Origin: an uncultured Smithella sp.
GTDB taxonomy: Bacteria > Desulfobacterota > Syntrophia > Syntrophales > Smithellaceae
Direction of reading: 5' to 3'
Assembly (NCBI GenBank): GCA_964646755.1
Contig: CAZYIE010000011.1
Coordinates: 4,681 to 68,680, forward strand
Length of the DNA stretch: 64,000 bases
Shown here: piece by piece, positions 22,699 to 62,118 of the stretch
Layout of the letters: every line of letters starts with the position of its first letter
How positions within the stretch are numbered: the stretch's first letter is position 1
Notes under the pieces: model-generated
What the model was told of the DNA's origin: nothing
The model's database searches: none
What the model saw: the letters and a program-made list of their open reading frames with translations, nothing else
Position numbers and translations under genes: made by a program

Positions 22699-22700
22699 TC

Positions 22701-24426: not shown

Positions 24427-24469
24427 TCAGTATTTTGGATTTATTAAATTTTAACAGATGACTTTGTTT

Positions 24470-24528
24470 CCCCGCCTCAACTGGGCTTTCCCCTTCCAGG
24501 GGGAGAGCCCGAAGGTGGACGGGGTTTT
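24470..24528 (+). terminator. intercistronic terminator-like stem-loop between the SBP and ATPase genes
   Basis: Long imperfect hairpin. The outer stem is CCCCG../..CGGGG and the inner stem is GGGCUUUCCCC/GGGGAGAGCCC. It is followed by UUUUGU. Confidence 0.6.
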
Positions 24529-24571
24529 GTAACGGAATAAAATTATTCCTAAAGAAGGAACTTTTGTAAAC

Positions 24572-32103: not shown

Positions 32104-32202
32104 TGTTGACAAACAACTTATAACCCGGTGACGGACGTCGATGCGACCTGTCATGGCATACATCGACGCCGCACCGGGGTAATCTCTCTTGAGGAGGAAA
32201 CT

Positions 32203-34623: not shown

Positions 34624-34689
34624 TAACCAATAATTGACAGGACGCCGGTTCCGCGGATCCGGCGTCCGTTACATACAAGGAGGAACATC

Positions 34690-38266: not shown

Positions 38267-38315
38267 GGGTCATGCGATCTTTAGCGACGATCAGCGTGTG
38301 GGGGGAGCAACATTC

Positions 38316-40127: not shown

Positions 40128-40168
40128 GAGTCCCGCCGGGAGGAAAATTCAGAGAGGGTGTTGATATA

Positions 40169-41068: not shown

Positions 41069-41076
41069 AAACGTTT

Positions 41077-43696: not shown

Positions 43697-43802
43697 TCCA
43701 GTGAAAGACGTAATAAGTAGCCTCGGAGGCCGGTCGTTTCCGCCGGCGTCGAAAAGTCCAAATAGATTAGTGTCAAAATCGATGTCAATGGTTGTTTGCA
43801 CC

Positions 43803-43835
43803 GTCCCTGTCCCCGTTCCACAGCGGGACAGGGAC
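43803..43835 (+). other. perfect 11-bp stem-loop between the hydrolase and SBP genes
   Basis: GTCCCTGTCCC, an 11-nt loop, then GGGACAGGGAC. There is no U-tract. Confidence 0.6.
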
Positions 43836-43874
43836 ACTAATAATATTGACCATATTATAAAAAGGAGGAAGTAT

Positions 43875-45530: not shown

Positions 45531-46295
45531 GTGGATACATCCTATTTATCATTGGAAGGGAAAGTTGCAGTTGTTACCGGAGGAAGCCGGGGCATTGGTG
45601 AGGCGATAGCATTGGTTTTTGCTGATGCAGGAGCCGATGTGGCTATTTGTAGCCGTAAACTGGAAGATCTGGAAAAGGTTGCTGTGAAAATCAGGGCCAT
45701 GGGACGTAAAGCCCTTGCCGTGCCTATGCACAACCGGGAAATAGACAGTATAAAGAACGGAATTGATGCTATCGTCAAAGAATTCGGGCGGATTGATATT
45801 CTGGTGAATAATGCGGCCACCAATCCCGGCATGGGCTACCTCGTTGATATGGACGAGAAAATGTACGACCAGATCATGGTCACTAACCTCAAGGGTTATA
45901 CCGTCATGAGCCAGCTGGTGGGCAAGATTATGCGCGAGCAGAAGAGCGGCAATATAGTTAATGTCTCTTCTGTCGGCGGCGTAAGTCCCGATAAAGGTTT
46001 GGGATTGTATTGCATTAGTAAAGCCGGCATCGGCATGCTGACCCGCGCTATGGCCAAAGAAATGGGTGAATTCGGTATCCGTGTGAACTGTATCGCACCG
46101 GGTGTGACAAGGACTAAATTCAGCAAAGCTCTGTGGAGCAACGAAGAGATGATGAAGGTGGAAATGGCTCATATGCCGATTAAACGTGTTGCCGAGCCGG
46201 TAGAAATGGGTCGTATAGCATTATTTCTCGCTTCGGAGGCCTCGGCTTACATGACGGGACAGATTCTTGTTGCGGACGGTGGCGGATCAATTTAG
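45531..46295 (+). CDS. short-chain dehydrogenase/reductase (3-oxoacyl / 3-hydroxyacyl reductase-like)
   Basis: 254 aa. Motifs are TGGSRGIG, NNAA and the catalytic S...YCISK. Confidence 0.9.
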   Translation: MDTSYLSLEGKVAVVTGGSRGIGEAIALVFADAGADVAICSRKLEDLEKVAVKIRAMGRKALAVPMHNREIDSIKNGIDAIVKEFGRIDILVNNAATNPGMGYLVDMDEKMYDQIMVTNLKGYTVMSQLVGKIMREQKSGNIVNVSSVGGVSPDKGLGLYCISKAGIGMLTRAMAKEMGEFGIRVNCIAPGVTRTKFSKALWSNEEMMKVEMAHMPIKRVAEPVEMGRIALFLASEASAYMTGQILVADGGGSI

Positions 46296-46418
46296 TTGTG
46301 TCCGGGGCAACATGGTTTCCTGAAAGAGAAAGGAAAACCGGAAGAACTAAGGTCAGAACTGAAGTGTAAGGCAATAAATATTTCAGAAGAGTCAAAAAAT
46401 CAGGAGGTATAAATTACA

Positions 46419-47864
46419 ATGGGCTTAATGACAGCAGATCAATATAGAGAGAGTTTAAACGACGGCAGGGTTGTCTATTACAAAGGCAAGAAGATCGATA
46501 ATGTTTGCGACCATCCCCATCTCGCTGCCTGCGTCAATACGGTGGCCGTGGATTATGAAATGGCCCACGATCCGCAGTACAAGGATCTGGCACTGGTTTA
46601 CGATGAAGAACTCAAAGAAAATATCAGCAGATACAACCATATCCCCAAGAACGGCCAGGATCTGTTGAAGCACCTGGAGCTTATCATCAAGGCAACGGAA
46701 CTGGGGCAAGGATACATTCCCCTGGCCCACGATATCGGCGCCGATGCCATGAACGCCATTGCCATTACGGCCAGGACCATGGGCGAGGCCGGCAAGGTGT
46801 ATGCCGAACGTATCGAAAAATACAGAAAATACTTAAAGCAGACTGATAAATGCGTCGTGGCGGGAGTGACTGATGCCAAAGGCGACCGGCATCTGAAGCC
46901 TTCCGATCCGGGGCAGGCGAATCCCGACTTTCAAGTGCGTCTGGTCAGCAAAGATGATAAAGGGATTATCGTTCGGGGCGCCAAGGTTCATATTACCGGA
47001 GCTGCCTACTGTAACGAATTCTTCGTTATCCCCTGTAAGGCCATGAGTTCTCCCGAGGAAGCTCCCTACGCAGTAGCATTTGCCATCCAGGCCAATGCCA
47101 AGGGGATCCGGCAGATCGTCCGTCCATTCAATGGCCGGATCAGTGATGACGAGTTTCCCCTGGACTCACCGTTGAGAATGATGCACACGGACTCCCTGAT
47201 TATCTTTGATGATGTTTTTGTGCCCTGGGACAGGGTGTTCCTTTGCGGTGAGTGGAAGTTTGCGGCCACCATGGTTTATAATTTTGCGCTGATGCATCGC
47301 CGGACAGGATGCGCCTATCGCATTCCAATGAGCGAGCAACTGCTGGGTATTGCCCAGGCTATCGCCGAGTATAACGGCGTGGCCGACGCCCCCCACGTTA
47401 AGGAAAAGATCACGGAGATCGTAATCTATCTCGAGACGCTCAATGCACTGTCGCGGTCGGCCTGTCTGGATTTCGTGGATCATGCCGGCATTCCCGTTCC
47501 TAATCCCATTACAACAAATATCGCCAAATACCATTTTGCTCACAACTACCACAAGATTTGCGAGATCATTCAGGATCTGGCCGGTGGGCTTCTGGTTACC
47601 GCGCCGACTTACAGAGACTGGATGAACCCCGAAACGCACGAGGACATCAAGAAGTACCTCCAGGGCAGTGCAAAAGTTCCGACGGAGCACAGACTGCGGA
47701 TGTTTGATTTGGTTCGCCGATTGACCGCAGGTGATCTGGAAACGATTTGTCTCCACGGAGAGGGTTCACCCTTTGCGGAAAGAATGACCATTCTGATGGA
47801 AGCGCGAAAGACCATCGCCCGCTGCAAGGCGCTTGCCGAGGAAATGGCAGGTATCAAGAAATAA
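46419..47864 (+). CDS. 4-hydroxybutyryl-CoA dehydratase / vinylacetyl-CoA isomerase (AbfD)-HpaB family protein
   Basis: 481 aa. The N-terminus MTADQYRESLNDGRVVYYKGKKIDNV.DHP and the C-terminus ...AEEMAGIKK closely parallel AbfD as I recall it. AGGAGG RBS is present. Confidence 0.8.
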   Translation: MGLMTADQYRESLNDGRVVYYKGKKIDNVCDHPHLAACVNTVAVDYEMAHDPQYKDLALVYDEELKENISRYNHIPKNGQDLLKHLELIIKATELGQGYIPLAHDIGADAMNAIAITARTMGEAGKVYAERIEKYRKYLKQTDKCVVAGVTDAKGDRHLKPSDPGQANPDFQVRLVSKDDKGIIVRGAKVHITGAAYCNEFFVIPCKAMSSPEEAPYAVAFAIQANAKGIRQIVRPFNGRISDDEFPLDSPLRMMHTDSLIIFDDVFVPWDRVFLCGEWKFAATMVYNFALMHRRTGCAYRIPMSEQLLGIAQAIAEYNGVADAPHVKEKITEIVIYLETLNALSRSACLDFVDHAGIPVPNPITTNIAKYHFAHNYHKICEIIQDLAGGLLVTAPTYRDWMNPETHEDIKKYLQGSAKVPTEHRLRMFDLVRRLTAGDLETICLHGEGSPFAERMTILMEARKTIARCKALAEEMAGIKK

Positions 47865-47883
47865 TTAAACCACAATTGGCTGA

Positions 47884-47919
47884 CGGATGCGACCACCATC
47901 TTACGGTGGTGCGCATCCG
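47884..47919 (+). other. strong GC hairpin after the AbfD-like gene
   Basis: CGGATGCGACCACC, a 7-nt loop, then GGTGGTGCGCATCCG, with one bulge. There is no U-tract. Confidence 0.6.
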
Positions 47920-48032
47920 GAAGGCAATGTGTTCTTGCCGGGTCAGACTTTTCGAAGCATCAGGAAACAAGGCTGGTCCGTGTCGTAATTCTTCTTGTCG
48001 CTTCATAAAAGCGACAGGAATAAAGGACAAAT

Positions 48033-48941
48033 ATGGTGCCCCGAATTTCAACAGAATTCACGGCTATGATGGGAATTCGTTATCCGATTATCGGGGCGCC
48101 AATGTTTTTAGTATCATATGAAGAACTAGTGGTTGCCGTCTGCAATGCCGGAGGATTGGGGATGCTTCCCCTGCCGAATTATCGCACGACGGAACAGTTG
48201 CGGCAGGCCATGGAGGTTATCCGTTCCCAAACGGAGGCGCCGGTGGGTGTCAATATTCATCTCTCCGGGAAGTTTCCCTGGCAGGAACAACTCTCCATCT
48301 GTCTCGATTACGGTGTCAAATTTTTCATTACATCCCTGGGAGATCCCCGTCTGATTCTGGATGCCGTGCATGCCGGCGGGGGATTGGTATTTGCTGATGT
48401 TGTTTCCCTGGCCCAAGGGCGTAAAGCCCGCGAGGGAGGAGTAGATGGCCTGGTGGCTGTAGGGGCCGGGGCCGGGGGCCATGGCGGGCGGGTGTCCACA
48501 CTTATTCTCGTGCCCTATCTTAGAGAGAAAATCGGACTGCCCGTTGTTGCGGCCGGGGGAATCAGTACAGGAGCGCAGATGGCCTCAGCAATTGCCTGCG
48601 GCGCCTGTGCGGTGATCGTGGGGACGCGACTTGTCGCCACACCCGAATCCCGCGCATCCGATGCCTACAAACAGGCGCTTATAGATACTGATCCCGAGGG
48701 GATAGTCTGTACAAACCGGGTAACTGGAAACCCGGCGAACTGGATCGCAGCAAGTATCGCGGATATAGAGGAGAGGCCGCCGCTGACGTCGAAAAAATGG
48801 CTCGATTTCTGGAGTGCCGGGCAGAGCGTGGCCCAGGTGCAAGATATAAAACCGGCGGCACAGATTGTCGCCGAAATGGTAAATGAATATTGCGAAACGT
48901 GCCGGCGGCTGCCGGGCACGATGATGTCAGAAGAATTGTGA
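48033..48941 (+). CDS. nitronate monooxygenase / FabK-like FMN enoyl reductase family protein
   Basis: 302 aa. Motifs are YPIIGAPM, AGGLGMLP and AAGGISTG. Confidence 0.82.
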   Translation: MVPRISTEFTAMMGIRYPIIGAPMFLVSYEELVVAVCNAGGLGMLPLPNYRTTEQLRQAMEVIRSQTEAPVGVNIHLSGKFPWQEQLSICLDYGVKFFITSLGDPRLILDAVHAGGGLVFADVVSLAQGRKAREGGVDGLVAVGAGAGGHGGRVSTLILVPYLREKIGLPVVAAGGISTGAQMASAIACGACAVIVGTRLVATPESRASDAYKQALIDTDPEGIVCTNRVTGNPANWIAASIADIEERPPLTSKKWLDFWSAGQSVAQVQDIKPAAQIVAEMVNEYCETCRRLPGTMMSEEL

Positions 48942-48960
48942 TCATGTAAGGAGGTCAACC

Positions 48961-50145
48961 ATGAGTAAACTGAAAGGTAAGGCGGCGTTCATTGGGATCG
49001 GCGAGGTTCCCACAGGACGCTTTCCGGAGACAGCGGCGATCTATCATGCGATAGAATCAGCTAAGCTGGCGATACGTGATGCGGGAATAAACAAGGATGA
49101 GATTGATTATGTGCTGCCGACGGCAGCCCTGTATAGTCCTGCATTCAATACGGAGCTGGTGACGTGCCGTGTTGTGGAAGAACTGGGATTGAAAAATGTG
49201 AAGAAGAACTGCCAGTTATTCGCGGGTGGATCAAGCAGCACTTGCATCACGGAGGTCGCGGCAAGTCTGATTAACAGCGGCGCGGCAAATACGATTTTAT
49301 TCGTTCATGCGGACCGGTTGGGAACGGGAGTAACCGCCCAGGGCGGCATTGACCTGTTCTCGACGGCGGGAATATCGGCGGAGTGGGAAGTGCCCTTCGG
49401 TCAGCACTATTCGGCGATAGCGGCGCTGTCCACAATGCGTTACAAACATGAGACGGGATGCACGGATGAACAACTGGCGGCGGTCTGTGTTTCGAATCGC
49501 AAATGGGCGCTGTTGAATCCCAATGCTTTTTTTAATAAACCGTTGACAATAGAAGAGGTGATGGCATCGAAAATGCTGTCAACGCCGCTGCGGGCGAAGA
49601 TGTCGAATATGTTGTTCGACGGCGGCTGTGCTTTTATTATAACGTCGGCTGAGCGTGCCCGCGCTGTTGCGAAGAAACCGGTATATCTGCTGGGCGAAGG
49701 TGGTGTGGTGACACACTTCGTGTTTTCCCAGGAGCCGGATGTGGCGCGTTTCGGTTGGGCGCGAGCGGGAAAGGCCGCGTTCGAGATGGCGGGGCTTACG
49801 CCGCAGGACATGGATATTGCGGAGATTTATGATTCCTATCCTATCTATCAGATGATCGGTTTTGAAGAGCTGGGCTTTGCCAAGCGTGGCGAGGGTGGCG
49901 AGATGTTCCTGCGCGGCGATACTTGGCCCGGTGGTAAGATGCCGACGACGACCAATGGCGGGATGCTGTCCCAGGGTCATACAGGCGCGGGCGGAGCCTG
50001 CGCCCTGATGGTGGAGACAGTGCGTCAGTTGATGGGCAAAGCCGGAGATCGTCAGGTTAAGGATGCGAAATTCGCCGTGGAAACGGCTGTTGGAGGGACC
50101 TACATGGATGCCCAGGTGACAATTCTGGGGACAGAAATTCCGTAG
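48961..50145 (+). CDS. SCP-x/Ltp-type thiolase-fold protein, partner of the downstream DUF35 protein
   Basis: 394 aa. Contains NGGMLSQGHTGAGGA. The expected nucleophile region reads FAGGSSSTC. AAGGAGG RBS is present. Confidence 0.85.
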   Translation: MSKLKGKAAFIGIGEVPTGRFPETAAIYHAIESAKLAIRDAGINKDEIDYVLPTAALYSPAFNTELVTCRVVEELGLKNVKKNCQLFAGGSSSTCITEVAASLINSGAANTILFVHADRLGTGVTAQGGIDLFSTAGISAEWEVPFGQHYSAIAALSTMRYKHETGCTDEQLAAVCVSNRKWALLNPNAFFNKPLTIEEVMASKMLSTPLRAKMSNMLFDGGCAFIITSAERARAVAKKPVYLLGEGGVVTHFVFSQEPDVARFGWARAGKAAFEMAGLTPQDMDIAEIYDSYPIYQMIGFEELGFAKRGEGGEMFLRGDTWPGGKMPTTTNGGMLSQGHTGAGGACALMVETVRQLMGKAGDRQVKDAKFAVETAVGGTYMDAQVTILGTEIP

Positions 50146-50164
50146 GATGAAAGGAGATAAGAAG

Positions 50165-50584
50165 ATGGATACACCCGTAAAACCAAAACCGGTTCCCGTA
50201 GTTAATCCCTGGGCGAAGCCCTTTTGGGATGCTGCCCGGGAAGAGAAACTGGTTATTCAGCATTGCAAGGACTGTGGGGCGAATATTTTTTATCCGCGGA
50301 TTGCCTGTCCGAATTGTTTTTCGGATAATGTAGAGTGGATTCAGGCATCGGGGAAAGCGACAGTTTATACTTACACGGTCGTGGAGAGCAATCCCCCGTC
50401 GGCTTTTATTGTTGATCTGCCGTATGTAGTAGCGGTGGTGAAACTGGCGGAAGGGGTTCAGATGTTGAGCAATATTGTGGGTTGCAAGCCGGAGGATGTG
50501 CGTTGCGACATGCCTGTGGAGGTAGTGTTCGAGACGCTCAACGAGGAGTTTAAGCTTCCCAAGTTCCGTCCTGTAAGTAAATAG
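50165..50584 (+). CDS. DUF35 Zn-ribbon plus OB-fold protein
   Basis: The Zn ribbon is CKDCGANIFYPRIACPNC and the OB segment is GKATVYTYTVVES...VVAVVKLAEGVQ. ATG 50165 follows AAAGGAGA. The track start is at 50147. Confidence 0.85.
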   Translation: MDTPVKPKPVPVVNPWAKPFWDAAREEKLVIQHCKDCGANIFYPRIACPNCFSDNVEWIQASGKATVYTYTVVESNPPSAFIVDLPYVVAVVKLAEGVQMLSNIVGCKPEDVRCDMPVEVVFETLNEEFKLPKFRPVSK

Positions 50585-50612
50585 GGAACGGCTATTTTAA
50601 GGAGAGTCAACG

Positions 50613-51062
50613 ATGACGCAGAAATATTACGAAGATTTTGATATCGGGTTTAATTTCAAGACGCTGTCCATTACGGTGACGGAAACGCACGTGGTAAACT
50701 GGGCCGGTCTGACGATGGATTTTTACCCGCTGCATATGGACGCTGAGTTTTGTGCAAAGACGGTATTTAAGGAGCGGATCGCCCATGGTCCTTTGATTTT
50801 CGGCATGGCCGTCGGTATGGCTGGTCTGGCGAAAATGGAAGGTGGTTCGATCATTGCCTGGATGGGTGCGGATAAAATGCGGATGCTGGCCCCGGTAAAG
50901 TTCGGGGACACGATTACGCTCTATGTGGAAGTTGTGGAGCGCAAAGAAACGAGTAAACCGTCGCAGGGGTTGCAGACTTGGCGCTATACTGTGAAGAACC
51001 AGCGCGACGAGGCCGTCATGGTTTTCGATATGAAGTTTCTCATGCAACGGAAGGCTGTATGA
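50613..51062 (+). CDS. MaoC-like (R)-specific enoyl-CoA hydratase (single hot-dog fold)
   Basis: 149 aa. Contains TVTETHVVNWAGLTMDFYPLHMD...AHG. AAGGAGAG RBS is present. Confidence 0.85.
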   Translation: MTQKYYEDFDIGFNFKTLSITVTETHVVNWAGLTMDFYPLHMDAEFCAKTVFKERIAHGPLIFGMAVGMAGLAKMEGGSIIAWMGADKMRMLAPVKFGDTITLYVEVVERKETSKPSQGLQTWRYTVKNQRDEAVMVFDMKFLMQRKAV

Positions 51063-51132
51063 CGTCTGATTTGTCAGAAACCACGAATTTATTCAGGGGT
51101 ATCTGAGCGAAATCATCGGAAGGAGACCGAAA

Positions 51133-52281
51133 GTGGATTTTAATTTTACAGATAAGCAGAATACATTGCGTGACAAGGTGCGGGGATATGTAGATAACAA
51201 TATTGCCCCGGCCTTGATCCGAGAAATTGAAGAAAAGGATGAGTTCCCCCATGATCTGGTGAAGAAATTTTGTGATCTGGGTCTGGCCAAAGTCAATATA
51301 CCTGAGGCTTACGGTGGTCTGGGAGGCGACATCGTGGATCTGATGATTGTCTTTGAGGAGATCGCTAAAAAACTTCCGGTGCTGTGCTGGAACCTGGGCA
51401 ACATCCTCTTGTATGGCAATGAAATTATCGGCGTTAACGGTAATCAGGAACAAAAGGACGAATTCCTGCCGAAACTGGCCGCAGGCGAAATCATGTTCAG
51501 TTTTGCCATTACGGAACCGAACGCCGGGTCCGATGCCGCCAGTATTAAAACGCGGGCGTTTTTCGAAAACGGGCATTACGTGATCAATGGCGGCAAGATG
51601 TTCATTACCGGTGCGGGGGTTTCGACTTATGCGGTGACGTTTGCCCGGACGGCTGAATCTAAATACAATGGGATCACGTCTTTTATCGTGGACAAGTCCC
51701 TGGAAGGCTACAGCGCTAAAAACATCAAGAAGCTCGGCTTTCACGGCTCCAATACCTGTGAAGTGGTCTATGACAACGTCCGGGTCTTGCCGCGTTTTAT
51801 CCTGGGCGGAGAAGAAAAGGGGCTTAACAACGGCTGGAAACAGGAGATGAAGCTTCTGAATCAGGAGCGACTCGTTCTGTCATCAATGACATTGGGGATG
51901 GCGCAAGCCTCGTTCGATGAGGCTCTGAAGTTCGCCCGCGAGAAGATGAAGCGGACTGCTCCGTCAACGGATGTGCAGTCCATTCAGCACGACATCGCCG
52001 AAATGGCGTCCGAACTGGAGGCGATGAAGGTGCTGGCTTACAGCACTGCCTGGAAAGAAGCGCAGGGTATGGACCCGGTGCGGGAAACCTCTATGACCAA
52101 GTACTTCTGCGCGGAAACGGCCAAGCACATAATCATGAAGGGCATGAACGTCCTGGGTGCCAGCGGCGCTTCGATGGATTACGATATGCAGAGAAACCTG
52201 AGAGAAATTCTCATTTTTTCCATCGGCGGCGGTACTTCACAGATCCAGAAGAACATTATCTGCAAGACGTTCGGACTGTAA
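51133..52281 (+). CDS. acyl-CoA dehydrogenase (standard ~380 aa form)
   Basis: 382 aa with a GTG start after GGAAGGAG. Contains FAITEPNAGSDAAS and SIGGGTSQIQKNII. Confidence 0.92.
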   Translation: MDFNFTDKQNTLRDKVRGYVDNNIAPALIREIEEKDEFPHDLVKKFCDLGLAKVNIPEAYGGLGGDIVDLMIVFEEIAKKLPVLCWNLGNILLYGNEIIGVNGNQEQKDEFLPKLAAGEIMFSFAITEPNAGSDAASIKTRAFFENGHYVINGGKMFITGAGVSTYAVTFARTAESKYNGITSFIVDKSLEGYSAKNIKKLGFHGSNTCEVVYDNVRVLPRFILGGEEKGLNNGWKQEMKLLNQERLVLSSMTLGMAQASFDEALKFAREKMKRTAPSTDVQSIQHDIAEMASELEAMKVLAYSTAWKEAQGMDPVRETSMTKYFCAETAKHIIMKGMNVLGASGASMDYDMQRNLREILIFSIGGGTSQIQKNIICKTFGL

Positions 52282-52307
52282 AATCGAGAAAGGGAGGATA
52301 TCAATAC

Positions 52308-54317
52308 ATGGGACAGATTTTTGCCTGTGAAAATCAGGATGGTATAGCCGTGGTAAGGTTTGATGTACCCGGCGAACAGATGAATACATGGACAGAAGGA
52401 GCCATTGCGGATTTTAACACTATGCTGGCATTCCTGGAAAAAGAGAAAAGCGCTTATAAAGGGGTGATCTTCATATCCGGCAAAGCTTCTAATTTTCATG
52501 CCGGCGCCAATCTCAATATGTTGGGATCGGAGAAGAATCTCGACGACTTCCGTAAAGGGTGCGATGAGTTCAACGGCATGTTTGTCCGTCTGGAGAATCT
52601 CGGGATTCCTACAGTGGCCGCCATTAATGGCCCCTGCATGGGTGGAGGTTACGAATTTGCCCTGACGATGATGGCACGGATGGCGACCGACAGCAAGCGA
52701 ACTACCATCGGCCTGCCCGAGTGTAACGTAGGAGTTATCCCCGGAGCGGGTGGCACGCAGCGTCTTCCCCGCCTGATCGGTTATCCTGCTCTGGATTTTA
52801 TTCCCCGAGGCGCGGTACTTCCGGCGGCCAAGGCAATGGAAGCAGGCATGATCGACCGGGTCATCCCGGAGGCGGACGATCTGCTGGCGAAAGCGAAAGA
52901 ATTTTTATTGGAAATAGTTGCCGGTACGGCCGGATTAAAGCGGGCGAAACCGGATCTTTCCTCTCTGGATGCAGCCCTGGAGGCGGCAAAGAAGAATGTT
53001 CTGAAGGCGACGCGGGGCCGGGCAATTCCGGCGCCGATGCTGGCCCTCAAGGCCATGAGCGAAGGTTTGAAGGTGTCGATCGAACAGGGCCTGAAAATTG
53101 AAACGGATTGTTTTATCGAAGCACTGAAAGCCCCTGAATCCAAGGGAACGATTAACACGTTCTTCCTGAAAACAATGTCCGACAAGCCGAAGGCAATGAT
53201 ACCCAAAGGCTTCGAACCCAAACCCATCCGGAAATTCGGTGTGCTCGGTTTCGGCACGATGGGGCGGGGGATCATTATCAACATCCTTATCCGTACCAAA
53301 CTGCCGGTTGTCGTCAAGGATGTTCCCGAGGCACTGGAGCCGGGAATGGCATTCATCCGCGGTATTCTTGAGGGCATGGCGGCAAAGAAGCGGCTGAAGG
53401 ACCCTGTCGAAAGCCTGATGGCCCTGGTGAAACCTGTGGCAGAATGGACGGATGATTTCAAAGATGTCGACGTGGTCATCGAAGCCGTTTTCGAAGATCC
53501 CGCCATCAAGGATAAGGTCTACAAGGAACTGTGCCAGGTTGTGGCGAAAGACTGTCTGCTCGCGACAAATACATCGAGTCTGCCGGTAGACAAGCTCGCG
53601 GGAAGCGTCCTGAATCCGGATCGTTTTATCGGCGCCCATTTCTTCTCTCCAGTCTGGATGATGGAACTCCTGGAGGTGATCCGTGGCAAAGAGACCAGCG
53701 AGGCCACGGTGAACAACATGCTGGCGGTCTGTGCAGCTCTAGGCAAGCGCCCGGTTGTCTGCAACGACAACCCCGGATTCGTGGTTAATGCGATGCTCTT
53801 CCCCTACTTTATCAAATCCTTTGAGCTCCTGGCGGAAGGTGTGGCGATGGAAAAGATCGATGCCGCCATGATGAAGTTCGGCCTGCCGGTGGGTCCCATC
53901 CGTCTGACCGACGAGGTTGGGATTGACGTATCCTATCTAGTCCTGACGAAATCTTTAGGAATGGTGCCGCCTGTGGCCCTGGAAAATATTTATAAGGCCG
54001 GTCGTTACGGACGCAACAAAAACGGCAAGGGATTTTATACTAAGGAAGGCGCCCCCGATCCGGAGGCTCTGCCCCTGGTTAACCCGGACAATAAACAAAA
54101 GGAATATTCTGTAGCCGAGCTGCAGGAAATGCTCTTTACCCCCTTTGTCCAAACCGGATATGAGCTCTTGCAAAAGAAGGTAGTTAGTGATCCCCGGTCG
54201 ATCGATATCGGCGCCATTTGGGGAGTCGGCTTCCCCTCGGACAAGGGAGGTCCGATGAAATGGGCCGATCTTATCGGTTTGAGTGAGAAGCTTTATGGAA
54301 AGAAATTTTATAAATAA
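52308..54317 (+). CDS. bifunctional enoyl-CoA hydratase (N-terminal) / 3-hydroxyacyl-CoA dehydrogenase (C-terminal), FadB-type order
   Basis: 669 aa. The crotonase region is FHAGANL...CMGGGYEFAL. The Rossmann motif is FGVLGFGTMGRGI. Confidence 0.9.
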   Translation: MGQIFACENQDGIAVVRFDVPGEQMNTWTEGAIADFNTMLAFLEKEKSAYKGVIFISGKASNFHAGANLNMLGSEKNLDDFRKGCDEFNGMFVRLENLGIPTVAAINGPCMGGGYEFALTMMARMATDSKRTTIGLPECNVGVIPGAGGTQRLPRLIGYPALDFIPRGAVLPAAKAMEAGMIDRVIPEADDLLAKAKEFLLEIVAGTAGLKRAKPDLSSLDAALEAAKKNVLKATRGRAIPAPMLALKAMSEGLKVSIEQGLKIETDCFIEALKAPESKGTINTFFLKTMSDKPKAMIPKGFEPKPIRKFGVLGFGTMGRGIIINILIRTKLPVVVKDVPEALEPGMAFIRGILEGMAAKKRLKDPVESLMALVKPVAEWTDDFKDVDVVIEAVFEDPAIKDKVYKELCQVVAKDCLLATNTSSLPVDKLAGSVLNPDRFIGAHFFSPVWMMELLEVIRGKETSEATVNNMLAVCAALGKRPVVCNDNPGFVVNAMLFPYFIKSFELLAEGVAMEKIDAAMMKFGLPVGPIRLTDEVGIDVSYLVLTKSLGMVPPVALENIYKAGRYGRNKNGKGFYTKEGAPDPEALPLVNPDNKQKEYSVAELQEMLFTPFVQTGYELLQKKVVSDPRSIDIGAIWGVGFPSDKGGPMKWADLIGLSEKLYGKKFYK

Positions 54318-54400
54318 TAACTGAATCGTCAGCCGCCGGATCGCCCGCTTATTTTTAGAAACGAACGATCCGGATGACCGGCGAAAAGAGGAGGACTATT

Positions 54401-55984
54401 ATGACAACAATGTTTCACGGTATCAGCTGTGCCGATTTGTACGACCGATCGGTCGCGGCATTCCGGCAGAATACCGCCATTCTTTTCAATGACGAAAAAT
54501 ATACCTACGATGACCTGCAGAAGAACGCCTACTCGCTGGCGAACGCCATGCACAAGCTGGGGCTCAAGAAGGGAGATCGGGTTGGTTTTCTTATGGCCAA
54601 CTGCCCGGAATACATTTTCGCGGAGTACGCTCTGGGCAAACTGGGGATGGTTCGCATTCCGCTGGCCGTACTGCTCAATTCCAAAGATCATATTTACATG
54701 CTGAACCAGTCCGAATGCAAAGTGCTGATCTACCATGAGAAGATGGCAGCCCGGGTACAGGAGATGATTCCTTCACTCGAGACGGTCAAGCATTTCATTT
54801 GCGTGGCTAAGGATTCGGCGAAAGTTCCGGCCGGACATGAGCACATGCAGAGCCTTATCGCCAAAAATCTGCCGGAAGTGCCCAAGGTCGAGCATGATTG
54901 CGAAGATCTGGTCGGTATTTTTTATACCGGCGGTACTACGGGCCTTCCCAAAGGTGTGATGCTGACCCAGAATACCTGGGTGGGAACATTCATCAGCGAG
55001 ATGCTGCACCTTGGTTTGGATTGGGATGAAACATTTGCCTTTGCCACGCCTTTGACCCATGCGGGCGGTTGTTTGATCCTGCCGGTTCTGCTGAAACGGG
55101 GAATCTGCGAGATCCATGACCATTTTGATCCGAAGATATTTCTGGAGCGGGTGGAGAAGGTAAAGATAACGTCTACATTCATTGTGCCTACGATGATCTA
55201 TGTTCTTCTGGACCATCCGGACCTCAAAAAATACGATCTGTCGAGTCTGCGCAACGTAATTTATGGTGCATCCGCCATTGCTCCGGCCCGCCTGAAGCAG
55301 GCAGTAGATACTCTGGGTCCGATATTCACCCAGCTTTTCGGCCAAACAGAAACTCCCATGATGATCAGTGCCCTGTCCCGCCAGGAACATGTCATTGCGG
55401 ATCCGGAAAAACGGATGAAGATTTACACATCCTGCGGCAGGCCCGTGATGTCAGCCGACGTGCGCATTATCGGTGAAGACGGCAAAGAAGTTCCTCAGGG
55501 AGAATCTGGCGATATCGTCTGCCGGACAATAAACATGATGTCCGGCTATCTCAAGAATCCGGAACAGACTGCGGAGACAATCCGGGACGGATTTTTGTGG
55601 ACAGGAGATGTCGGCAAGTTCGATGAAGAAGGCTATCTCTACATCGTGGACCGTTCCAAGGACATGATCGTCAGTGGCGGCTTCAACATTTTCCCCCGGG
55701 AGATTGAGGATACCCTCCATGAACATCCGGCGGTAAAGAGTGCCGCAGTTATTGGTGTGCCGCATGAAAAGTGGGGTGAACTGGTCAAAGCCATTGTGGT
55801 TTTGCACAAGGATAAGCCGGCCACTGAAGAAGAGTTGATCAATTTCGTGAAGTCGAAAAAGGGAAGTCTGGTTACCCCCAAGAGTGTCGAGTTCTGGGAG
55901 GAGATTCCGCTCACGAATCTGGGAAAAATTGATAAGAAAAAGATCCGGGCACCCTTCTGGAAGGGCCATGATCGAAAAGTGTAA
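54401..55984 (+). CDS. medium/long-chain acyl-CoA synthetase (class I adenylate-forming, 527 aa)
   Basis: ATG 54401 follows GAGGAGG. Motifs are FYTGGTTGLPKG, TGDVGKFDEEGYLYIVDRSKD and LGKIDKK. Confidence 0.9.
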   Translation: MTTMFHGISCADLYDRSVAAFRQNTAILFNDEKYTYDDLQKNAYSLANAMHKLGLKKGDRVGFLMANCPEYIFAEYALGKLGMVRIPLAVLLNSKDHIYMLNQSECKVLIYHEKMAARVQEMIPSLETVKHFICVAKDSAKVPAGHEHMQSLIAKNLPEVPKVEHDCEDLVGIFYTGGTTGLPKGVMLTQNTWVGTFISEMLHLGLDWDETFAFATPLTHAGGCLILPVLLKRGICEIHDHFDPKIFLERVEKVKITSTFIVPTMIYVLLDHPDLKKYDLSSLRNVIYGASAIAPARLKQAVDTLGPIFTQLFGQTETPMMISALSRQEHVIADPEKRMKIYTSCGRPVMSADVRIIGEDGKEVPQGESGDIVCRTINMMSGYLKNPEQTAETIRDGFLWTGDVGKFDEEGYLYIVDRSKDMIVSGGFNIFPREIEDTLHEHPAVKSAAVIGVPHEKWGELVKAIVVLHKDKPATEEELINFVKSKKGSLVTPKSVEFWEEIPLTNLGKIDKKKIRAPFWKGHDRKV

Positions 55985-56008
55985 ATAATTGTCCTTGCGG
56001 GGATATGG

Positions 56009-56040
56009 GGGTAGGCAGACCGGTAAAGGTCTGCCTACCC
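56009..56040 (+). other. perfect 13-bp stem-loop between the CoA ligase and the next ACAD
   Basis: GGGTAGGCAGACC, loop GGTAAA, then GGTCTGCCTACCC. There is no U-tract. Confidence 0.65.
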
Positions 56041-56074
56041 TAAACTCAGAATGTAAAGAGAAAAGGAATAAAAA

Positions 56075-57217
56075 ATGGATTTCGCACTGACTGAAGAACA
56101 GGGATTTGTTAAAGATACGATACAGAAGTTTGTGGCGAAAGAGTGTGAGCGGGAAGCCATCAAAAAAATGGATGAAGAAGGGATATTCCCCGGAAAACTC
56201 TTTGGCAATGTGGCCGATATTGGTCTTTGCGCGTTAACCGTTCCCGAAGCCTATGGCGGCGGTGGACCCAATACCTTGGGGGCGGTTATCGTGACCGCCG
56301 AACTTGCGGCCATTTATCCCGCATTGGCCGGAGCTTTTGCCACCCAGAGTTTTTGCGGGGGCAAGGTTATTGCCGATGTAGGGACCGAGGCGCAGAAAAA
56401 CAAATATCTTCCCGGTGTGATTGATGGATCAGCACTGATTACGCTAGCCCTGATGGAACCGGGGCAGGGTTATGAGGAAACGGGCAATATGACGATAGCC
56501 CGGCCGGAAGGTGAACAGTTTGTTCTCAACGGAACAAAAACGTTTGTGCGCCTGGCCGATCGGGCCGCTTTTATGATTACACGCGTTGCGATAGCGAGCA
56601 CCGAAGGTGTCCCGGCTTTTCTGATTGTCGATATGAAGAGCCCCGGGATCGTTGTCCGTCCGCTTGCGCAGGTCGGATTTCACGGCATGAGCCTTTGTGA
56701 GGTGTCGCTGAACTCCGTTACTGTTGGGGCAAGTGAGCGTCTCGGTGGTGATGCCGACGCAGCAGCTGAGCAAAAGAAATTTGAACGGATCATGAGCGCC
56801 GAACATCTGGCTGTCGCAGCCTGCGGGATGGGACTGGCGAAGGGCGCTTATGAATATGCGCTCAATTATGCCAAGGAGCGCTCACAGTTCGGCCGGCCGA
56901 TTATCAAGTTTGGCGCCATCCAGGAAATTCTGGTGGATATGGCCCAACACGTACGCGTAGCGGAGCTGATGACTTGTCAGGCTGCATCTCTTGCTGATCA
57001 AGGGAAGGATTGTCTGGCTGAAATTATTCAGGCGCGGCTGGTGGCAACCCAAGCGGCGCGCAAGGCATCACTGCATTGTGTGCAGATTTTCGGTGGCTAT
57101 GGTTATGCTATGGAATACGATGCTCAACGTTATTTGCGGGATGCCATGGTAGTGCTCAGCGGAGGCGGAACCAAGCAGACCTTAAGCAACACGCTGGCGT
57201 CACTCTGGAATTATTGA
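56075..57217 (+). CDS. acyl-CoA dehydrogenase (standard ~380 aa form)
   Basis: 380 aa. It is ACAD-like throughout (..LALMEPGQGY.., ..FGGYGYAMEYDAQRYLRDA..). Confidence 0.88.
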   Translation: MDFALTEEQGFVKDTIQKFVAKECEREAIKKMDEEGIFPGKLFGNVADIGLCALTVPEAYGGGGPNTLGAVIVTAELAAIYPALAGAFATQSFCGGKVIADVGTEAQKNKYLPGVIDGSALITLALMEPGQGYEETGNMTIARPEGEQFVLNGTKTFVRLADRAAFMITRVAIASTEGVPAFLIVDMKSPGIVVRPLAQVGFHGMSLCEVSLNSVTVGASERLGGDADAAAEQKKFERIMSAEHLAVAACGMGLAKGAYEYALNYAKERSQFGRPIIKFGAIQEILVDMAQHVRVAELMTCQAASLADQGKDCLAEIIQARLVATQAARKASLHCVQIFGGYGYAMEYDAQRYLRDAMVVLSGGGTKQTLSNTLASLWNY

Positions 57218-57452
57218 ATCAACGTTCTTTGAAAAAGAAAAAGCTTTTTCTTTTATGGGATGATTTACCATCCATTCCCATAACGCATATGTAATAGTAT
57301 CAGTATCAACTTAATTGCAAATTGAAATCAGAGGTGGCGGCCTTATTGGGGTTGCCGTAAGCAGTTCCGTTTTTTCTGATGAATAAGATCGTAGGCAAGG
57401 GGGGCGAATATCCGAAAAGGGGGTGTTTTGCCTTGTCAAGGGTGGGGAGAGT

Positions 57453-57480: not shown

Positions 57481-57504
57481 ACTTTATTATTGAGGAGGCG
57501 ACGT

Positions 57505-58698: not shown

Positions 58699-58713
58699 GG
58701 TGATTTGAAGAAA

Positions 58714-59466: not shown

Positions 59467-59467
59467 A

Positions 59468-62053: not shown

Positions 62054-62118
62054 ACGGGATCGTGCCTCATCGTTGGAGGCCGGGCCGATACCTTTATGCA
62101 AAGTGAGAATGAATTCCT

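What the first reader, a model, noticed from the sequence alone, without database searches (positions are those of the whole stretch)
48961..52281. Thiolase-like, DUF35, MaoC and ACAD genes in a row, resembling Ltp2/ChsH/ChsE (retro-aldolase) and BbsAB architectures
In actinobacterial steroid side-chain degradation, an Ltp2 thiolase-fold aldolase works with a DUF35 domain and MaoC hydratases (ChsH1/H2) after an ACAD (ChsE). In anaerobic toluene degradation, the BbsB thiolase needs the DUF35 protein BbsA. Here the same four functions are adjacent as separate genes. The region where thiolases carry the nucleophilic Cys reads FAGGSSSTC in the 394-aa protein. Whether Cys is in register cannot be decided by eye. 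If the nucleophile is missing, the enzyme is more likely a retro-aldolase or retro-Claisen variant acting on alpha-branched or tertiary 3-hydroxyacyl-CoAs.
Basis: partly seen in the sequence, partly recalled or inferred. Interest (0 to 1): 0.6.

Follow-up and report, generated by a model that had tools for sequence, protein, structure and literature searches.

The report
Cysteine-less thiolase-fold aldolase module
Four adjacent genes encode a thiolase-shaped protein that has lost both catalytic cysteines, its zinc-ribbon partner, a hydratase and a dehydrogenase; together they most likely cut a C-C bond by a retro-aldol reaction, and the module recurs in more than 80 uncultured bacterial species but has never been studied.

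Summary
Window 48961-52281 holds four same-strand genes, each with a ribosome-binding site: a thiolase-like protein (394 aa), a DUF35 protein, a MaoC hydratase and an acyl-CoA dehydrogenase (ACAD).

The Cys in FAGGSSSTC (C95) is not in register. The nucleophile position is Gly90, as in the aldolases CtSal and TcLtp2. C95 is kept in only 53% of 81 orthologues.
- **The second thiolase Cys is also gone.** The HDCF motif reads Y290-D-S292-Y293. Tyr290 matches the catalytic base of Sal and Ltp2. His340 sits where Ltp2 has its catalytic acid, Tyr344.
- **Best explanation (inferred, not shown).** ACAD, then (R)-hydratase, then a thiolase-like/DUF35 retro-aldolase that releases acetyl-CoA plus a carbonyl compound.
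- **It differs from both known aldolases.** The Tyr/Ser/His set is unlike Ltp2 (YDHF plus Tyr) and Sal (YDCY plus Gln). It is shared with the uncharacterised structure 4U4E.
- **The BbsAB-type thiolase reading is rejected.**
- **Distribution.** The protein is 67-94% identical across about 85 MAG species, both anaerobes and aerobes. DUF35 and MaoC follow it in 76 of 76 loci. No isolate or curated family name was found.

The substrate is unknown. IVD/LCAD-type ACADs and the absence of an aldehyde dehydrogenase hint at beta-branched acids. I rate it a new variant of a known kind, of moderate interest.

The parts
48961..50145 (+). Thiolase-fold protein without catalytic cysteines (THL, 394 aa); putative retro-aldolase catalytic subunit
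   Evidence: Pfam Thiolase_C_1 7e-53, with no Thiolase_N hit. Sequence matches to solved structures: 4U4E 1.5e-57, CtSal 9MYR 6e-47, TcLtp2 6OK1 6e-34. G89, G90, Y290, D291, S292, Y293 and H340 are invariant in 81 orthologues, whereas C95 is only 53% conserved. AF2 model pTM 0.85; Foldseek TM 0.75-0.82 to SCP2-thiolase-like and DUF35-associated proteins.
50165..50584 (+). DUF35 protein (rubredoxin-like Zn ribbon plus OB fold); putative partner subunit of THL. The ORF is open from 50147, but the start is probably 50165.
   Evidence: Pfam zf-ChsH2 and OB_ChsH2_C. Best solved relatives are ChsH2(DUF35) 6OK1_B at 3e-22 and Shy(DUF35) 9MYR_B at 1e-21. C40, C43, C54 and C57 (CxxC-x10-CxxC) are invariant in 76 orthologues. 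Ribosome-binding site before 50165.
50613..51062 (+). MaoC-type (R)-specific enoyl-CoA hydratase, single hot-dog, 149 aa
   Evidence: Pfam MaoC_dehydratas 8.6e-21. Solved relatives: 1Q6W, 4FFU, the PaaZ C-terminal domain and PhaJ. The hydratase-2 dyad D36 and H41 is invariant in 77 orthologues.
51133..52281 (+). Acyl-CoA dehydrogenase (ACAD1, 382 aa) with the catalytic base on helix G, the IVD/LCAD layout
   Evidence: Three ACAD Pfam domains. IGGGT replaces the IYEGT motif of the MCAD/SCAD type. The ungapped alignment ranges to IVD 1IVH and LCAD 8W0T place Glu245 on IVD residue 254 and LCAD residue 261. PMC10925408 states that only IVD and LCAD place the base there.
48033..48941 (+). NMO/FabK-family FMN enzyme (putative enoyl reductase), 19 nt upstream of THL; part of the same operon
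   Evidence: Pfam NMO 2.7e-42. Best solved relative is FabK 5GVJ. Co-conserved in many related loci.
46419..47864 (+). HpaB/AbfD-family flavoprotein, related to 4-hydroxybutyryl-CoA dehydratase but lacking three of its four Fe-S ligands
   Evidence: Pfam HpaB_N and HpaB. Solved relatives 1U8V at 3e-70 and 6VJR at 4e-65; the alignment shows C99, C103 and C299 are not conserved. Conservation in 26 orthologues.
45531..46295 (+). SDR oxidoreductase, co-conserved with the module
   Evidence: Pfam adh_short 3e-54. Orthologues at 43-96% identity occur in most related loci.
52308..54317 (+). FadB/FadJ-like enoyl-CoA hydratase / 3-hydroxyacyl-CoA dehydrogenase
   Evidence: Pfam ECH_1, 3HCDH_N and 3HCDH. 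NCBIfam FadJ scores 493 bits, below its cut-off.
54374..55984 (+). Acyl-CoA synthetase, the most constant companion of the THL-DUF35-MaoC core
   Evidence: Pfam AMP-binding 5.7e-76. An orthologue (45-97% identity) is present in 46 of 53 loci with 6 kb flanks, usually directly after MaoC.
56075..57217 (+). Second ACAD (ACAD2, 380 aa), also with helix-G Glu and SGGGT; last gene before a terminator-like hairpin at 57347-57369
   Evidence: Pfam; motif check; terminator-like site followed by TTTTTT.

Best explanation
The 394-aa protein and the DUF35 protein most likely form a Sal/Ltp2-type heteromeric retro-aldolase, that is, a 3-hydroxyacyl-CoA lyase built on the thiolase fold. The proposed sequence is:
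1. The co-conserved acyl-CoA synthetase activates a carboxylic acid.
2. The IVD/LCAD-type ACAD makes the 2-enoyl-CoA.
3. The MaoC hydratase adds water to give a (3R)-3-hydroxyacyl-CoA.
4. The thiolase-like subunit cleaves the C2-C3 bond without a covalent acyl-enzyme. Tyr290 deprotonates the 3-hydroxyl. The enolate of acetyl-CoA (or another short acyl-CoA) is then stabilised and protonated with the help of His340, which occupies the position of the Ltp2 catalytic acid Tyr344 and of the thiolase oxyanion-hole His.
5. The products are an acyl-CoA and a ketone or aldehyde.

The DUF35 zinc-ribbon/OB protein would bind the catalytic dimer and help shape the substrate cleft.

Shown here: gene content, loss of both thiolase cysteines, invariance of Tyr290, Ser292 and His340, intact hydratase and Zn-ribbon residues, and strict co-conservation. 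Inferred: the complex, the aldolase activity and the residue roles. The substrate is unknown. A beta-branched or otherwise bulky acid that gives a tertiary alcohol and a ketone product is my favoured guess, held with low confidence.
For: - **No thiolase chemistry is possible.** Gly90 aligns with the nucleophilic Cys of the P. furiosus thiolase (EAACAS) and with CtSal Gly89. Ser292 replaces the HDCF acid/base Cys. No cysteine near these sites is conserved: C95 is 53% and C84 is 77%.
- **The Tyr base is kept.** Tyr290 aligns with CtSal Tyr302 and TcLtp2 Tyr294, the catalytic bases shown by mutagenesis (PMC12329534). It is invariant in 81 orthologues.
- **His340 is at the acid position.** It aligns with TcLtp2 Tyr344, the catalytic acid, and is invariant.
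- **CoA binding looks intact.** Invariant Lys204 aligns with the CoA-pyrophosphate-binding Arg216 of CtSal.
- **Characterised homologues are aldolases.** Both the catalytic subunit and the DUF35 protein have the two steroid aldolase complexes as their best characterised relatives.
- **The partner proteins look functional.** The four Zn-ribbon Cys and the hydratase Asp36/His41 are invariant.
- **Co-conservation is strict.** THL-DUF35-MaoC occurs in 76 of 76 loci, with an ACAD in 51 of 53 and the synthetase in 46 of 53. The same four functions recur in a different gene order around a 45%-identical relative with the same GG/YDSY/H set.
- **It is not the pathway's thiolase.** Canonical Cys-type thiolases sit beside the module in several related loci and 13 kb upstream in the window.
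- **The wider clade is Cys-less.** Nearly all of the 117 nearest 50%-identity cluster representatives have Gly-Gly and Tyr-Asp-x-[FY].
- **Hints at a beta-branched substrate.** Both operon ACADs have the helix-G Glu layout otherwise known only from IVD and LCAD. No aldehyde dehydrogenase was found in the window or in six Pfam-annotated related loci, whereas SDRs are conserved.
Against: - No biochemical data exist for any member. All orthologues found come from MAGs or metagenomes.
- The catalytic set matches neither characterised aldolase. Ser292 sits where CtSal needs Cys304, and the CtSal C304S variant was inactive. TcLtp2 has His at that position and Tyr where this protein has His.
- The AF2 model has low confidence in the active-site loops (121-148, 209-218, 254-258, 334-344), and its coordinates could not be inspected. 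Residue geometry is therefore untested.
- Foldseek does not separate aldolases from true thiolases; all score TM 0.75-0.82.
- The operon also encodes a FadB-like enzyme and contains no Cys-type thiolase of its own. A thiolase role would fill that apparent gap.
- The hints about substrate class are indirect.
Confidence: 0.6

Rival explanations
1. It is a genuine DUF35-dependent 3-ketoacyl-CoA thiolase, like BbsAB or the archaeal acetoacetyl-CoA thiolase. It would complete the beta-oxidation begun by the operon's ACADs and FadB-like enzyme.
For: Thiolase fold with a DUF35 partner. The thiolase His (His340) is retained. The operon 45531-57217 has a FadB-like enzyme but no canonical thiolase. Source databases call the protein acetyl-CoA acetyltransferase.
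Against: The nucleophilic Cys is Gly90 and the acid/base Cys is Ser292, both invariant, and no other active-site Cys is conserved. There is no Thiolase_N Pfam hit. Every NCBIfam thiolase or BbsB model scores far below its cut-off: BbsB 118 against 750, and the archaeal thiolase 173 against 600. Related loci carry a canonical thiolase next to this gene.
Confidence: 0.05
2. The Cys-less protein does something other than aldol cleavage. It might decarboxylate a malonyl-type or beta-keto acyl-CoA, by analogy with the weak malonyl-CoA decarboxylase activity of TbSLP. It might instead act as a non-catalytic scaffold or substrate-binding subunit for the hydratase or another enzyme.
For: TbSLP, a close structural neighbour (TM 0.80), only showed slow malonyl-CoA decarboxylation (PMC12329534). 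The third motif position is highly variable across the Cys-less clade. Ser at the CtSal Cys304 position killed CtSal.
Against: Residue conservation is extreme: 100 of 394 positions are invariant at 67-94% identity across phyla, including Tyr290, Asp291, Ser292, Tyr293 and His340. That argues for catalysis. Strict pairing with an (R)-hydratase and an ACAD fits a 3-hydroxyacyl-CoA substrate. The authors of the CtSal paper themselves propose that TbSLP is an aldolase.
Confidence: 0.2
3. It is a retro-aldolase of the Sal kind that acts on an ordinary secondary 3-hydroxyacyl-CoA and releases an aldehyde, for example a steroid-like, aromatic or alicyclic side chain. No tertiary alcohol or beta-branch would be involved.
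For: CtSal, the best characterised homologue, cleaves a secondary alcohol to an aldehyde. Some hosts are Steroidobacteraceae and Rhodocyclaceae/Zoogloeaceae.
Against: No aldehyde dehydrogenase lies in the window or in six annotated related loci, unlike the Sal/Sad system. The ACADs have the IVD/LCAD layout linked to branched or bulky substrates. Most hosts are Syntrophales, Desulfobacterales and other lineages with no steroid-degradation context.
Confidence: 0.15

Closest known systems
CtSal-CtShy(DUF35) bile-acid side-chain aldolase of Comamonas testosteroni (PDB 9MYR; PMC12329534)
   Same: Thiolase fold. Gly at the nucleophile position (CtSal Gly89 = Gly90 here). Tyr base in the Y-D-x-Y motif (Tyr302 = Tyr290). 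Basic residue at the CoA-pyrophosphate site (Arg216 = Lys204). Works with a DUF35 partner and a MaoC hydratase. Best characterised sequence match, at 6e-47 and about 31% identity.
   Different: CtSal uses Cys304 as the acid, where this protein has Ser292, and the C304S variant was inactive. CtSal has Gln352 where this protein has His340. The CtSal DUF35 is the C-terminal domain of the hydratase Shy and has a Cys3His zinc site; here DUF35 is free-standing with four Cys. The host, pathway and substrate context are different and unknown.
TcLtp2-ChsH2(DUF35) with ChsH1/ChsH2 and ChsE1/ChsE2 (actinobacterial steroid C3 side-chain cleavage; PDB 6OK1)
   Same: The same logic of ACAD, then MaoC hydratase, then Cys-less thiolase-fold aldolase bound to a DUF35 with a C4 zinc ribbon. 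Tyr294 = Tyr290. The catalytic acid position (Tyr344) is occupied here by another possible acid, His340. The DUF35 protein's best solved match is ChsH2(DUF35), at 3e-22.
   Different: The motif is YDHF there and YDSY here, and the acid is Tyr there and His here. About 29% identity. The hydratase here is a single 149-aa hot-dog, not a heteromeric ChsH1/ChsH2, and is not fused to DUF35. The ACADs are IVD/LCAD-like, with no ChsE-type pairing shown. There is no steroid gene context.
Putative thiolase of Sphaerobacter thermophilus (PDB 4U4E, structural genomics, function unknown)
   Same: Best sequence and fold match (1.5e-57, about 35% identity, Foldseek rank 1). Same active-site pattern: GG, YDSF and His.
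   Different: Uncharacterised, so it adds no functional information. It belongs to a different 50%-identity cluster.
Benzoylsuccinyl-CoA thiolase BbsAB (PDB 7PXP)
   Same: A thiolase-fold subunit plus a separate DUF35 zinc-ribbon subunit encoded side by side, in an anaerobe's modified beta-oxidation.
   Different: BbsB is a true thiolase. The sequence match covers only residues 141-379 (7e-32). The NCBIfam BbsB equivalog scores 118 against 750. There are no BbsCD or BbsEF-type neighbours. That BbsB retains catalytic cysteines is from my memory of the literature and was not checked here.
[quoted passage not shown]
   Same: An SCP2-type thiolase fold bound to a DUF35 scaffold (TM 0.82).
   Different: The thiolase there has catalytic Cys and needs an HMGCS partner, and no HMGCS-like gene lies in this operon. 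Such a pair, an HMGCS-like-DUF35 fusion plus a Cys-type thiolase, does occur next to the module in related loci L001 and L004.
Peroxisomal D-specific beta-oxidation (MFE-2 hydratase-2/SDR plus SCPx thiolase) and ibuprofen IpfD/IpfE (both from memory, not tested)
   Same: A MaoC hydratase, an SDR and an SCP2-type thiolase-fold enzyme acting on branched or bulky acyl-CoAs. IpfD/IpfE is another SCPx-like plus DUF35 pair proposed to remove an acyl-CoA side chain.
   Different: SCPx has the HDCF motif and a nucleophilic Cys. No oxygenase context is present here.

Membership tests
Thiolase (degradative/biosynthetic, including SCP2-type) | Nucleophilic Cys in the N-terminal domain | tested here: not met
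   Gly90, invariant in 81 orthologues, aligns with the Cys of 7YVY (EAACAS). C95 lies 5 residues downstream and is only 53% conserved.
Thiolase (degradative/biosynthetic, including SCP2-type) | Acid/base Cys (HDCF motif in SCP2-type thiolases) | tested here: not met
   The motif is Y290-D-S292-Y293, invariant. The SCP2 HDCF motif is taken from PMC12329534.
Thiolase (degradative/biosynthetic, including SCP2-type) | Conserved His of the G-H motif; thiolase fold | tested here: met
   His340 is invariant. Foldseek TM 0.75-0.82 to thiolase-fold proteins. Only Thiolase_C_1 is hit in Pfam, not Thiolase_N.
Ltp2-type steroid aldolase | Cys-less active site with a Tyr base in the YDHF motif | tested here: inconclusive
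   Gly90 and Tyr290 are present, but the motif is YDSY: Ser replaces the oxyanion-hole His296.
Ltp2-type steroid aldolase | Second catalytic Tyr (Tyr344) as acid | tested here: not met
   His340 occupies that column.
Ltp2-type steroid aldolase | Complex with the DUF35 domain of the ChsH2 hydratase | not testable with these tools
   A DUF35 gene lies 19 nt downstream and is closest to ChsH2(DUF35). It is free-standing, and the complex itself was not tested.
Sal-type bile-acid aldolase | YDCY motif with catalytic Cys304, and Gln352 | tested here: not met
   Ser292 and His340. CtSal C304S is inactive.
Sal-type bile-acid aldolase | Partner DUF35 with a Cys3His zinc site, fused to the MaoC hydratase Shy | tested here: not met
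   The site is C40-x2-C43-x10-C54-x2-C57, of the C4 type, and invariant. The gene is separate and lies upstream of MaoC.
BbsAB benzoylsuccinyl-CoA thiolase | BbsB equivalog score and bbs gene context | tested here: not met
   NF053628 scores 118 bits against a cut-off of 750. No CoA-transferase or BbsCD-type pair lies nearby.
Archaeal thiolase/HMGCS/DUF35 complex | Cys-type thiolase plus an adjacent HMG-CoA synthase | tested here: not met
   NF053570 scores 173 bits against 600. No HMGCS-like gene lies in 45531-57217.
DUF35 (zf-ChsH2 + OB_ChsH2_C) | Both Pfam domains above the gathering score, and four zinc-binding Cys | tested here: met
   57.9 and 83.6 bits against cut-offs of 23.2 and 27.1. 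The four Cys are invariant.
MaoC (R)-specific enoyl-CoA hydratase | Hot-dog fold with the Asp/His catalytic dyad of the hydratase-2 motif | tested here: met
   Pfam 74.3 bits against 27. D36-x4-H41 is invariant in 77 orthologues. The motif definition is from memory.
Acyl-CoA dehydrogenase, IVD/LCAD-type | Catalytic Glu on helix G instead of the J-K loop | tested here: met
   Gly-Gly replaces Tyr-Glu of IYEGT. The ungapped alignment ranges place Glu245 on IVD residue 254 and LCAD residue 261. Rule taken from PMC10925408.

The most novel reading that the evidence does not exclude
The protein represents a third catalytic class of thiolase-fold retro-aldolase, using a Tyr290/His340 dyad with Ser at the Cys/His position. 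On this reading, the conserved island is a widespread, so far unrecognised bypass of beta-oxidation for beta-substituted acyl-CoAs that form tertiary 3-hydroxy intermediates. The island comprises two CoA ligases, IVD-type ACADs, an NMO reductase, an SDR, MaoC, the aldolase/DUF35 pair, and either an AbfD-like flavoprotein (anaerobes) or an APH-type kinase (aerobes). Candidate substrates are isoprenoid-derived 3-methyl acids or alicyclic acetic acids. The island could then supply genes for orphan lyase reactions of the (1-hydroxycyclohexan-1-yl)acetyl-CoA lyase or 3-hydroxy-3-methylacyl-CoA lyase type, and would pass through a 4-oxo/4-hydroxyacyl-CoA intermediate.
Probability: 0.25. Interest if true: 0.75.

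Novelty: new variant of a known kind. Interest (0 to 1): 0.55.

Why it matters
Thiolase-fold aldolases are known from only two steroid side-chain systems, and each uses a different catalytic pair. This module shows a third residue set. It is extremely conserved (67-94% identity) in more than 80 uncultured species, from Syntrophales and sulfate reducers to Steroidobacteraceae, Burkholderiales and Acidimicrobiia, and it sits in a conserved catabolic island that has no curated name.

If the aldolase reading is right, three things follow:
- The repurposing of the thiolase fold would reach well beyond steroid degraders.
- Databases that call these proteins acetyl-CoA acetyltransferase would be wrong for a large clade. 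Nearly all of the 117 nearest cluster representatives lack the nucleophile.
- There would be a concrete gene set to test for how anaerobes and aerobes get past beta-substituents that block ordinary beta-oxidation.

The enzymes could also serve as C-C bond-forming biocatalysts.

Tried and rejected
- **NCBIfam scans.** All ten operon proteins and four proteins of the aerobic island version were scanned. Nothing reached a curated cut-off, so no name could be transferred.
- **Foldseek against the PDB.** It confirmed the fold but cannot separate aldolases from thiolases.
- **AF2 model.** Active-site loops have low confidence, and no model coordinate files were found in the script environment. The geometry of Tyr290, Ser292 and His340 was therefore not checked.
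- **Promoter and terminator scan.** Counts were no better than in shuffled sequence. Only the hairpin at 57347-57369 lies in an intergenic gap.
- **Literature searches.** I looked for this cluster in Syntrophales, Smithella and Desulfatiglans, and for DUF35 combined with tertiary alcohols or isoprenoids. No study of it turned up. The limonene paper PMC12583861 and the Ambrox paper PMC13599519 describe other enzymes. The BbsAB structure paper is not in the library.
- **Cluster-member look-up.** It found no isolate and no informative name.
- **C95 or C84 as a displaced nucleophile.** Rejected, because neither is conserved.
- **ChsE-like heteromeric ACAD pairing.** Considered but not tested. ACAD1 and ACAD2 are separated by two genes, and each has its own Glu.
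- **4-hydroxyacyl-CoA intermediate.** The idea rests on AbfD-like and APH-type genes replacing each other across loci. This may only reflect the split between anaerobic and aerobic lineages, so I keep it as a lead, not a conclusion.

Full report
**1. What is in the sequence**

The interval 48961-52281 contains four + strand ORFs:
- 48961-50145, 394 aa;
- 50147-50584;
- 50613-51062, 149 aa;
- 51133-52281, 382 aa.

Pfam assigns them as follows:
- Thiolase_C_1 (7e-53, with no Thiolase_N hit);
- zf-ChsH2 plus OB_ChsH2_C, i.e. DUF35;
- MaoC_dehydratas;
- the three ACAD domains.

Each gene has a GGAG-type ribosome-binding site, and the gaps between genes are 19-70 nt. The DUF35 gene probably starts at 50165. 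A ribosome-binding site lies at 50151-50156, homologues are 138 aa, and the source metagenome calls a 139-aa gene. The peptide FAGGSSSTC is at residues 87-95.

The four genes sit inside a longer same-strand array:
- SDR, 45531-46295;
- HpaB/AbfD-like flavoprotein, 46419-47864;
- NMO/FabK-like protein, 48033-48941;
- the four genes of the finding;
- FadB-like enzyme, 52308-54317;
- acyl-CoA synthetase, 54374-55984;
- second ACAD, 56075-57217;
- a terminator-like hairpin, 57347-57369.

The rest of the window holds three LIV-type ABC transporter sets, a second beta-oxidation set that includes a canonical thiolase (34690-35880), and housekeeping genes. The contig comes from a JGI metagenome. The closest species are uncultured Syntrophales-like deltaproteobacteria, at 94% identity.

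**2. Is the Cys in register?**

It is not. I combined phmmer alignments to solved structures with a MAFFT alignment that included five reference sequences. Both place the second Gly of F87-A-G-G90 on the nucleophilic Cys of the Pyrococcus furiosus thiolase (EAACAS). They also place it on Gly89 of CtSal, which its authors identify as the residue equivalent to the thiolase nucleophile (PMC12329534).

C95 lies five residues downstream. In 81 orthologues it is Cys in only 53% and Asn in 36%. G89 and G90 are invariant.

The second thiolase Cys, in the SCP2 HDCF motif, is also absent. The motif reads Y290-D291-S292-Y293 and is invariant. His340, the thiolase G-H histidine, is retained and invariant.

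| Position here | CtSal | TcLtp2 | Role in the known enzyme |
|---|---|---|---|
| Tyr290 | Tyr302 | Tyr294 | catalytic base |
| Ser292 | Cys304 | His296 | acid in CtSal; oxyanion hole in TcLtp2 |
| His340 | Gln352 | Tyr344 | acid in TcLtp2 |
| Lys204 | Arg216 | not examined | CoA pyrophosphate binding in CtSal |

The protein cannot perform covalent thiolysis. It keeps the one residue shared by both characterised thiolase-fold aldolases, and it has a potential acid where Ltp2 has its acid.

**3. Relatives**

- **Solved structures by sequence.** In order: 4U4E (uncharacterised Sphaerobacter 'thiolase', 1.5e-57, same GG/YDSF/His pattern), CtSal (6e-47), the P. furiosus thiolase, ST0096, TcLtp2 (6e-34), BbsB (7e-32, C-terminal half only) and the archaeal thiolase of the HMGCS complex.
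- **Fold.** An AF2 model (pLDDT 78, pTM 0.85) matches all of these at TM 0.75-0.82. The fold is confirmed, but it does not discriminate between them.
- **DUF35 protein.** It is closest to the DUF35 domains of ChsH2 and Shy (3e-22 and 1e-21). It has an invariant C4 zinc ribbon, whereas Shy has Cys3His.
- **MaoC protein.** It is a single hot-dog related to 1Q6W, the PaaZ hydratase domain and PhaJ. Its Asp36 and His41 are invariant.
- **NCBIfam.** No model reaches its cut-off for any of the ten operon proteins.

**4. Conservation and context**

The thiolase-like protein is unusually conserved. It is 67-94% identical in about 85 species-level genomes:
- Syntrophales/Smithellaceae, Desulfobacterales, Desulfatiglandales, Desulfomonilaceae and Spirochaetes;
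- also Hyphomonadaceae, Steroidobacteraceae, Burkholderiales, Rhodocyclaceae/Zoogloeaceae and Acidimicrobiia.

All hits are MAGs or metagenome contigs, with no isolate and no informative name. At 50% clustering the whole orthologue group collapses into one representative, and the next relatives drop to 49%.

Gene neighbourhood counts:
- DUF35 and MaoC accompany the gene in 76 of 76 loci with enough downstream sequence, and lie directly downstream in 75.
- The synthetase orthologue is present in 46 of 53 loci with 6 kb flanks, and an ACAD in 51 of 53.
- A 45%-identical relative with the same GG/YDSY/His set sits in an ACAD-MaoC-THL-DUF35 array with overlapping stop and start codons.
- A 48%-identical relative with YDFT has only the DUF35 neighbour.

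Of the 117 nearest full-length cluster representatives, nearly all have Gly-Gly at the nucleophile site and Tyr-Asp-x-[FY]. The third motif position varies (C, A, S, P, G). The protein therefore belongs to a large Cys-less clade in which only Sal and Ltp2 have been studied.

Several related loci carry a canonical Cys-type thiolase right beside the module. This argues that the Cys-less protein is not the pathway's thiolase.

**5. How it most likely works**

Shown:
- gene content;
- loss of both thiolase cysteines;
- invariant Tyr290, Ser292 and His340;
- an intact hydratase dyad and zinc ribbon;
- strict co-conservation.

Inferred steps:
1. The synthetase activates an acid.
2. ACAD1 forms the 2-enoyl-CoA.
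3. MaoC hydrates it to the (3R)-3-hydroxyacyl-CoA.
4. The THL-DUF35 complex cleaves C2-C3 by a retro-aldol reaction. Tyr290 acts as base on the hydroxyl, and His340 stabilises or protonates the enolate.
5. Acetyl-CoA (or another short acyl-CoA) and a carbonyl compound are released.

I put this at about 0.6.

The main caveat is that the CtSal C304S variant is inactive. This protein must therefore use a different acid than Sal does, and no member of its clade with this residue set has been assayed.

**6. Substrate hints (weak)**

- Both operon ACADs lack the J-K-loop Glu. IGGGT and SGGGT replace IYEGT.
- They carry a Glu on helix G instead. Ungapped alignment ranges place ACAD1 Glu245 on IVD residue 254 and LCAD residue 261. 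This layout is described as unique to IVD and LCAD, the ACADs for beta-branched and bulky substrates (PMC10925408).
- No aldehyde dehydrogenase lies in the window or in six Pfam-annotated related loci, whereas SDRs are conserved.
- Aerobic versions of the island read: FAD amine-oxidase/phytoene-desaturase-like protein, THL, DUF35, MaoC, synthetase, ACAD, (thiolase, FadB), APH-type kinase. They also carry an NMO protein, an SDR and a second synthetase.
- In 57 loci with 6 kb flanks, the AbfD-like flavoprotein (23 loci) and the APH-type kinase (18 loci) never co-occur.
- APH kinase plus ACAD is the known route for 4-hydroxyacyl-CoAs (ACAD10/11 and LvaA; PMC12440821, PMC11342911). AbfD is the anaerobic 4-hydroxybutyryl-CoA dehydratase. 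A 4-oxo/4-hydroxyacyl-CoA intermediate is therefore conceivable. However, the pattern may only reflect the split between aerobic and anaerobic lineages.
- The AbfD-like protein here lacks three of the four AbfD Fe-S ligands by alignment.

Together these hints favour a beta-substituted acid that gives a tertiary alcohol and a ketone, for example an isoprenoid-derived or alicyclic acetic acid. This is a guess, not a result.

**7. Comparison and verdict**

The module works like the Sal/Shy and Ltp2/ChsH/ChsE systems. It fails the specific membership features of both:
- the catalytic residues differ;
- DUF35 is not fused to the hydratase;
- the zinc-site type differs from that of Shy;
- the hydratase architecture differs;
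- there is no steroid context.

It also fails the tests for true thiolases, BbsAB and the archaeal thiolase/HMGCS complex.

I class it as a new variant of a known kind: a free-standing three-protein hydratase/aldolase module with a Tyr/Ser/His site, widespread in uncultured bacteria and currently mis-annotated as acetyl-CoA acetyltransferase. The conditional retro-aldolase interpretation is supported by sequence evidence, and the BbsAB alternative is rejected. Interest is moderate (0.55). It would be higher if the aldolase activity and a beta-branched substrate were demonstrated.

Noticed in passing
window 46419-47864: The HpaB-family protein is closest to the 4-hydroxybutyryl-CoA dehydratases (1U8V at 3e-70, 6VJR at 4e-65). 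Three of the four AbfD [4Fe-4S] ligands are not conserved by alignment: C99 falls in a gap, C103 is Asp105 and C299 is Tyr300. His293 is kept. It may be a cluster-free isomerase or dehydratase variant. C38, C206, C276 and C444 are invariant in 26 orthologues.
   Followed up: partly
related loci L042-L088 compared with the window and L001-L041: In 57 loci with at least 6 kb on each side, the AbfD-like gene (23 loci, anaerobic lineages) and an APH-type kinase gene next to an ACAD (18 loci, aerobic lineages) never co-occur. Both enzyme types are known solutions for converting 4-hydroxyacyl-CoA to enoyl-CoA, which hints at such an intermediate in the pathway.
   Followed up: partly
window 51133-52281 and 56075-57217: Both operon ACADs have Gly-Gly in place of the Tyr-Glu of the usual catalytic loop, and a Glu on helix G. 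This is the layout otherwise described only for isovaleryl-CoA and long-chain acyl-CoA dehydrogenases. The ACADs of the aerobic islands share it (Glu plus Val-Gly).
   Followed up: yes
window 28146-29762: A 538-aa protein whose only Pfam hit is the extra C-terminal domain of thiolase-like protein type 1 (TLP1). It lies beside a FadE-like ACAD, an HCDH/ECH fusion and a canonical thiolase (30238-35880). This is another non-canonical thiolase-like protein in the same window.
   Followed up: no
L001 7253-9931; L004 17359-20179: In related Syntrophales and Desulfatiglandales loci the module is accompanied by a fusion of an HMG-CoA-synthase-like domain (ACP_syn_III_C) with a DUF35 OB domain (471-488 aa). 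Next to the fusion lies a Thiolase_N/Thiolase_C_1 protein. The pair looks like a bacterial, fused version of the archaeal thiolase/HMGCS/DUF35 complex placed in a catabolic context.
   Followed up: no
window 20744-27964, 36696-42111, 57490-63099: There are three LIV-type ABC transporter gene sets. Each includes a 600-635-aa AMP-binding protein with the AMP-binding_C_3 domain. A beta-lactamase-fold protein (42371-43696) and a solute-binding protein (43701-45086) lie just upstream of the operon.
   Followed up: no
L086-L088, L002, L004 (immediately upstream of or near THL): A 430-540-aa FAD protein of the amine-oxidase/phytoene-desaturase type (NAD_binding_8 plus Amino_oxidase) directly precedes the thiolase-like gene in the aerobic islands. 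It occurs in 36 of 57 loci overall and is absent from this window's operon. NCBIfam gave no name.
   Followed up: partly
databases: Sources annotate this protein and its relatives as 'acetyl-CoA C-acetyltransferase' or 'thiolase family protein'. Yet nearly all of the 117 nearest 50%-identity cluster representatives lack the nucleophilic Cys, so this looks like a systematic mis-annotation of a large clade.
   Followed up: yes
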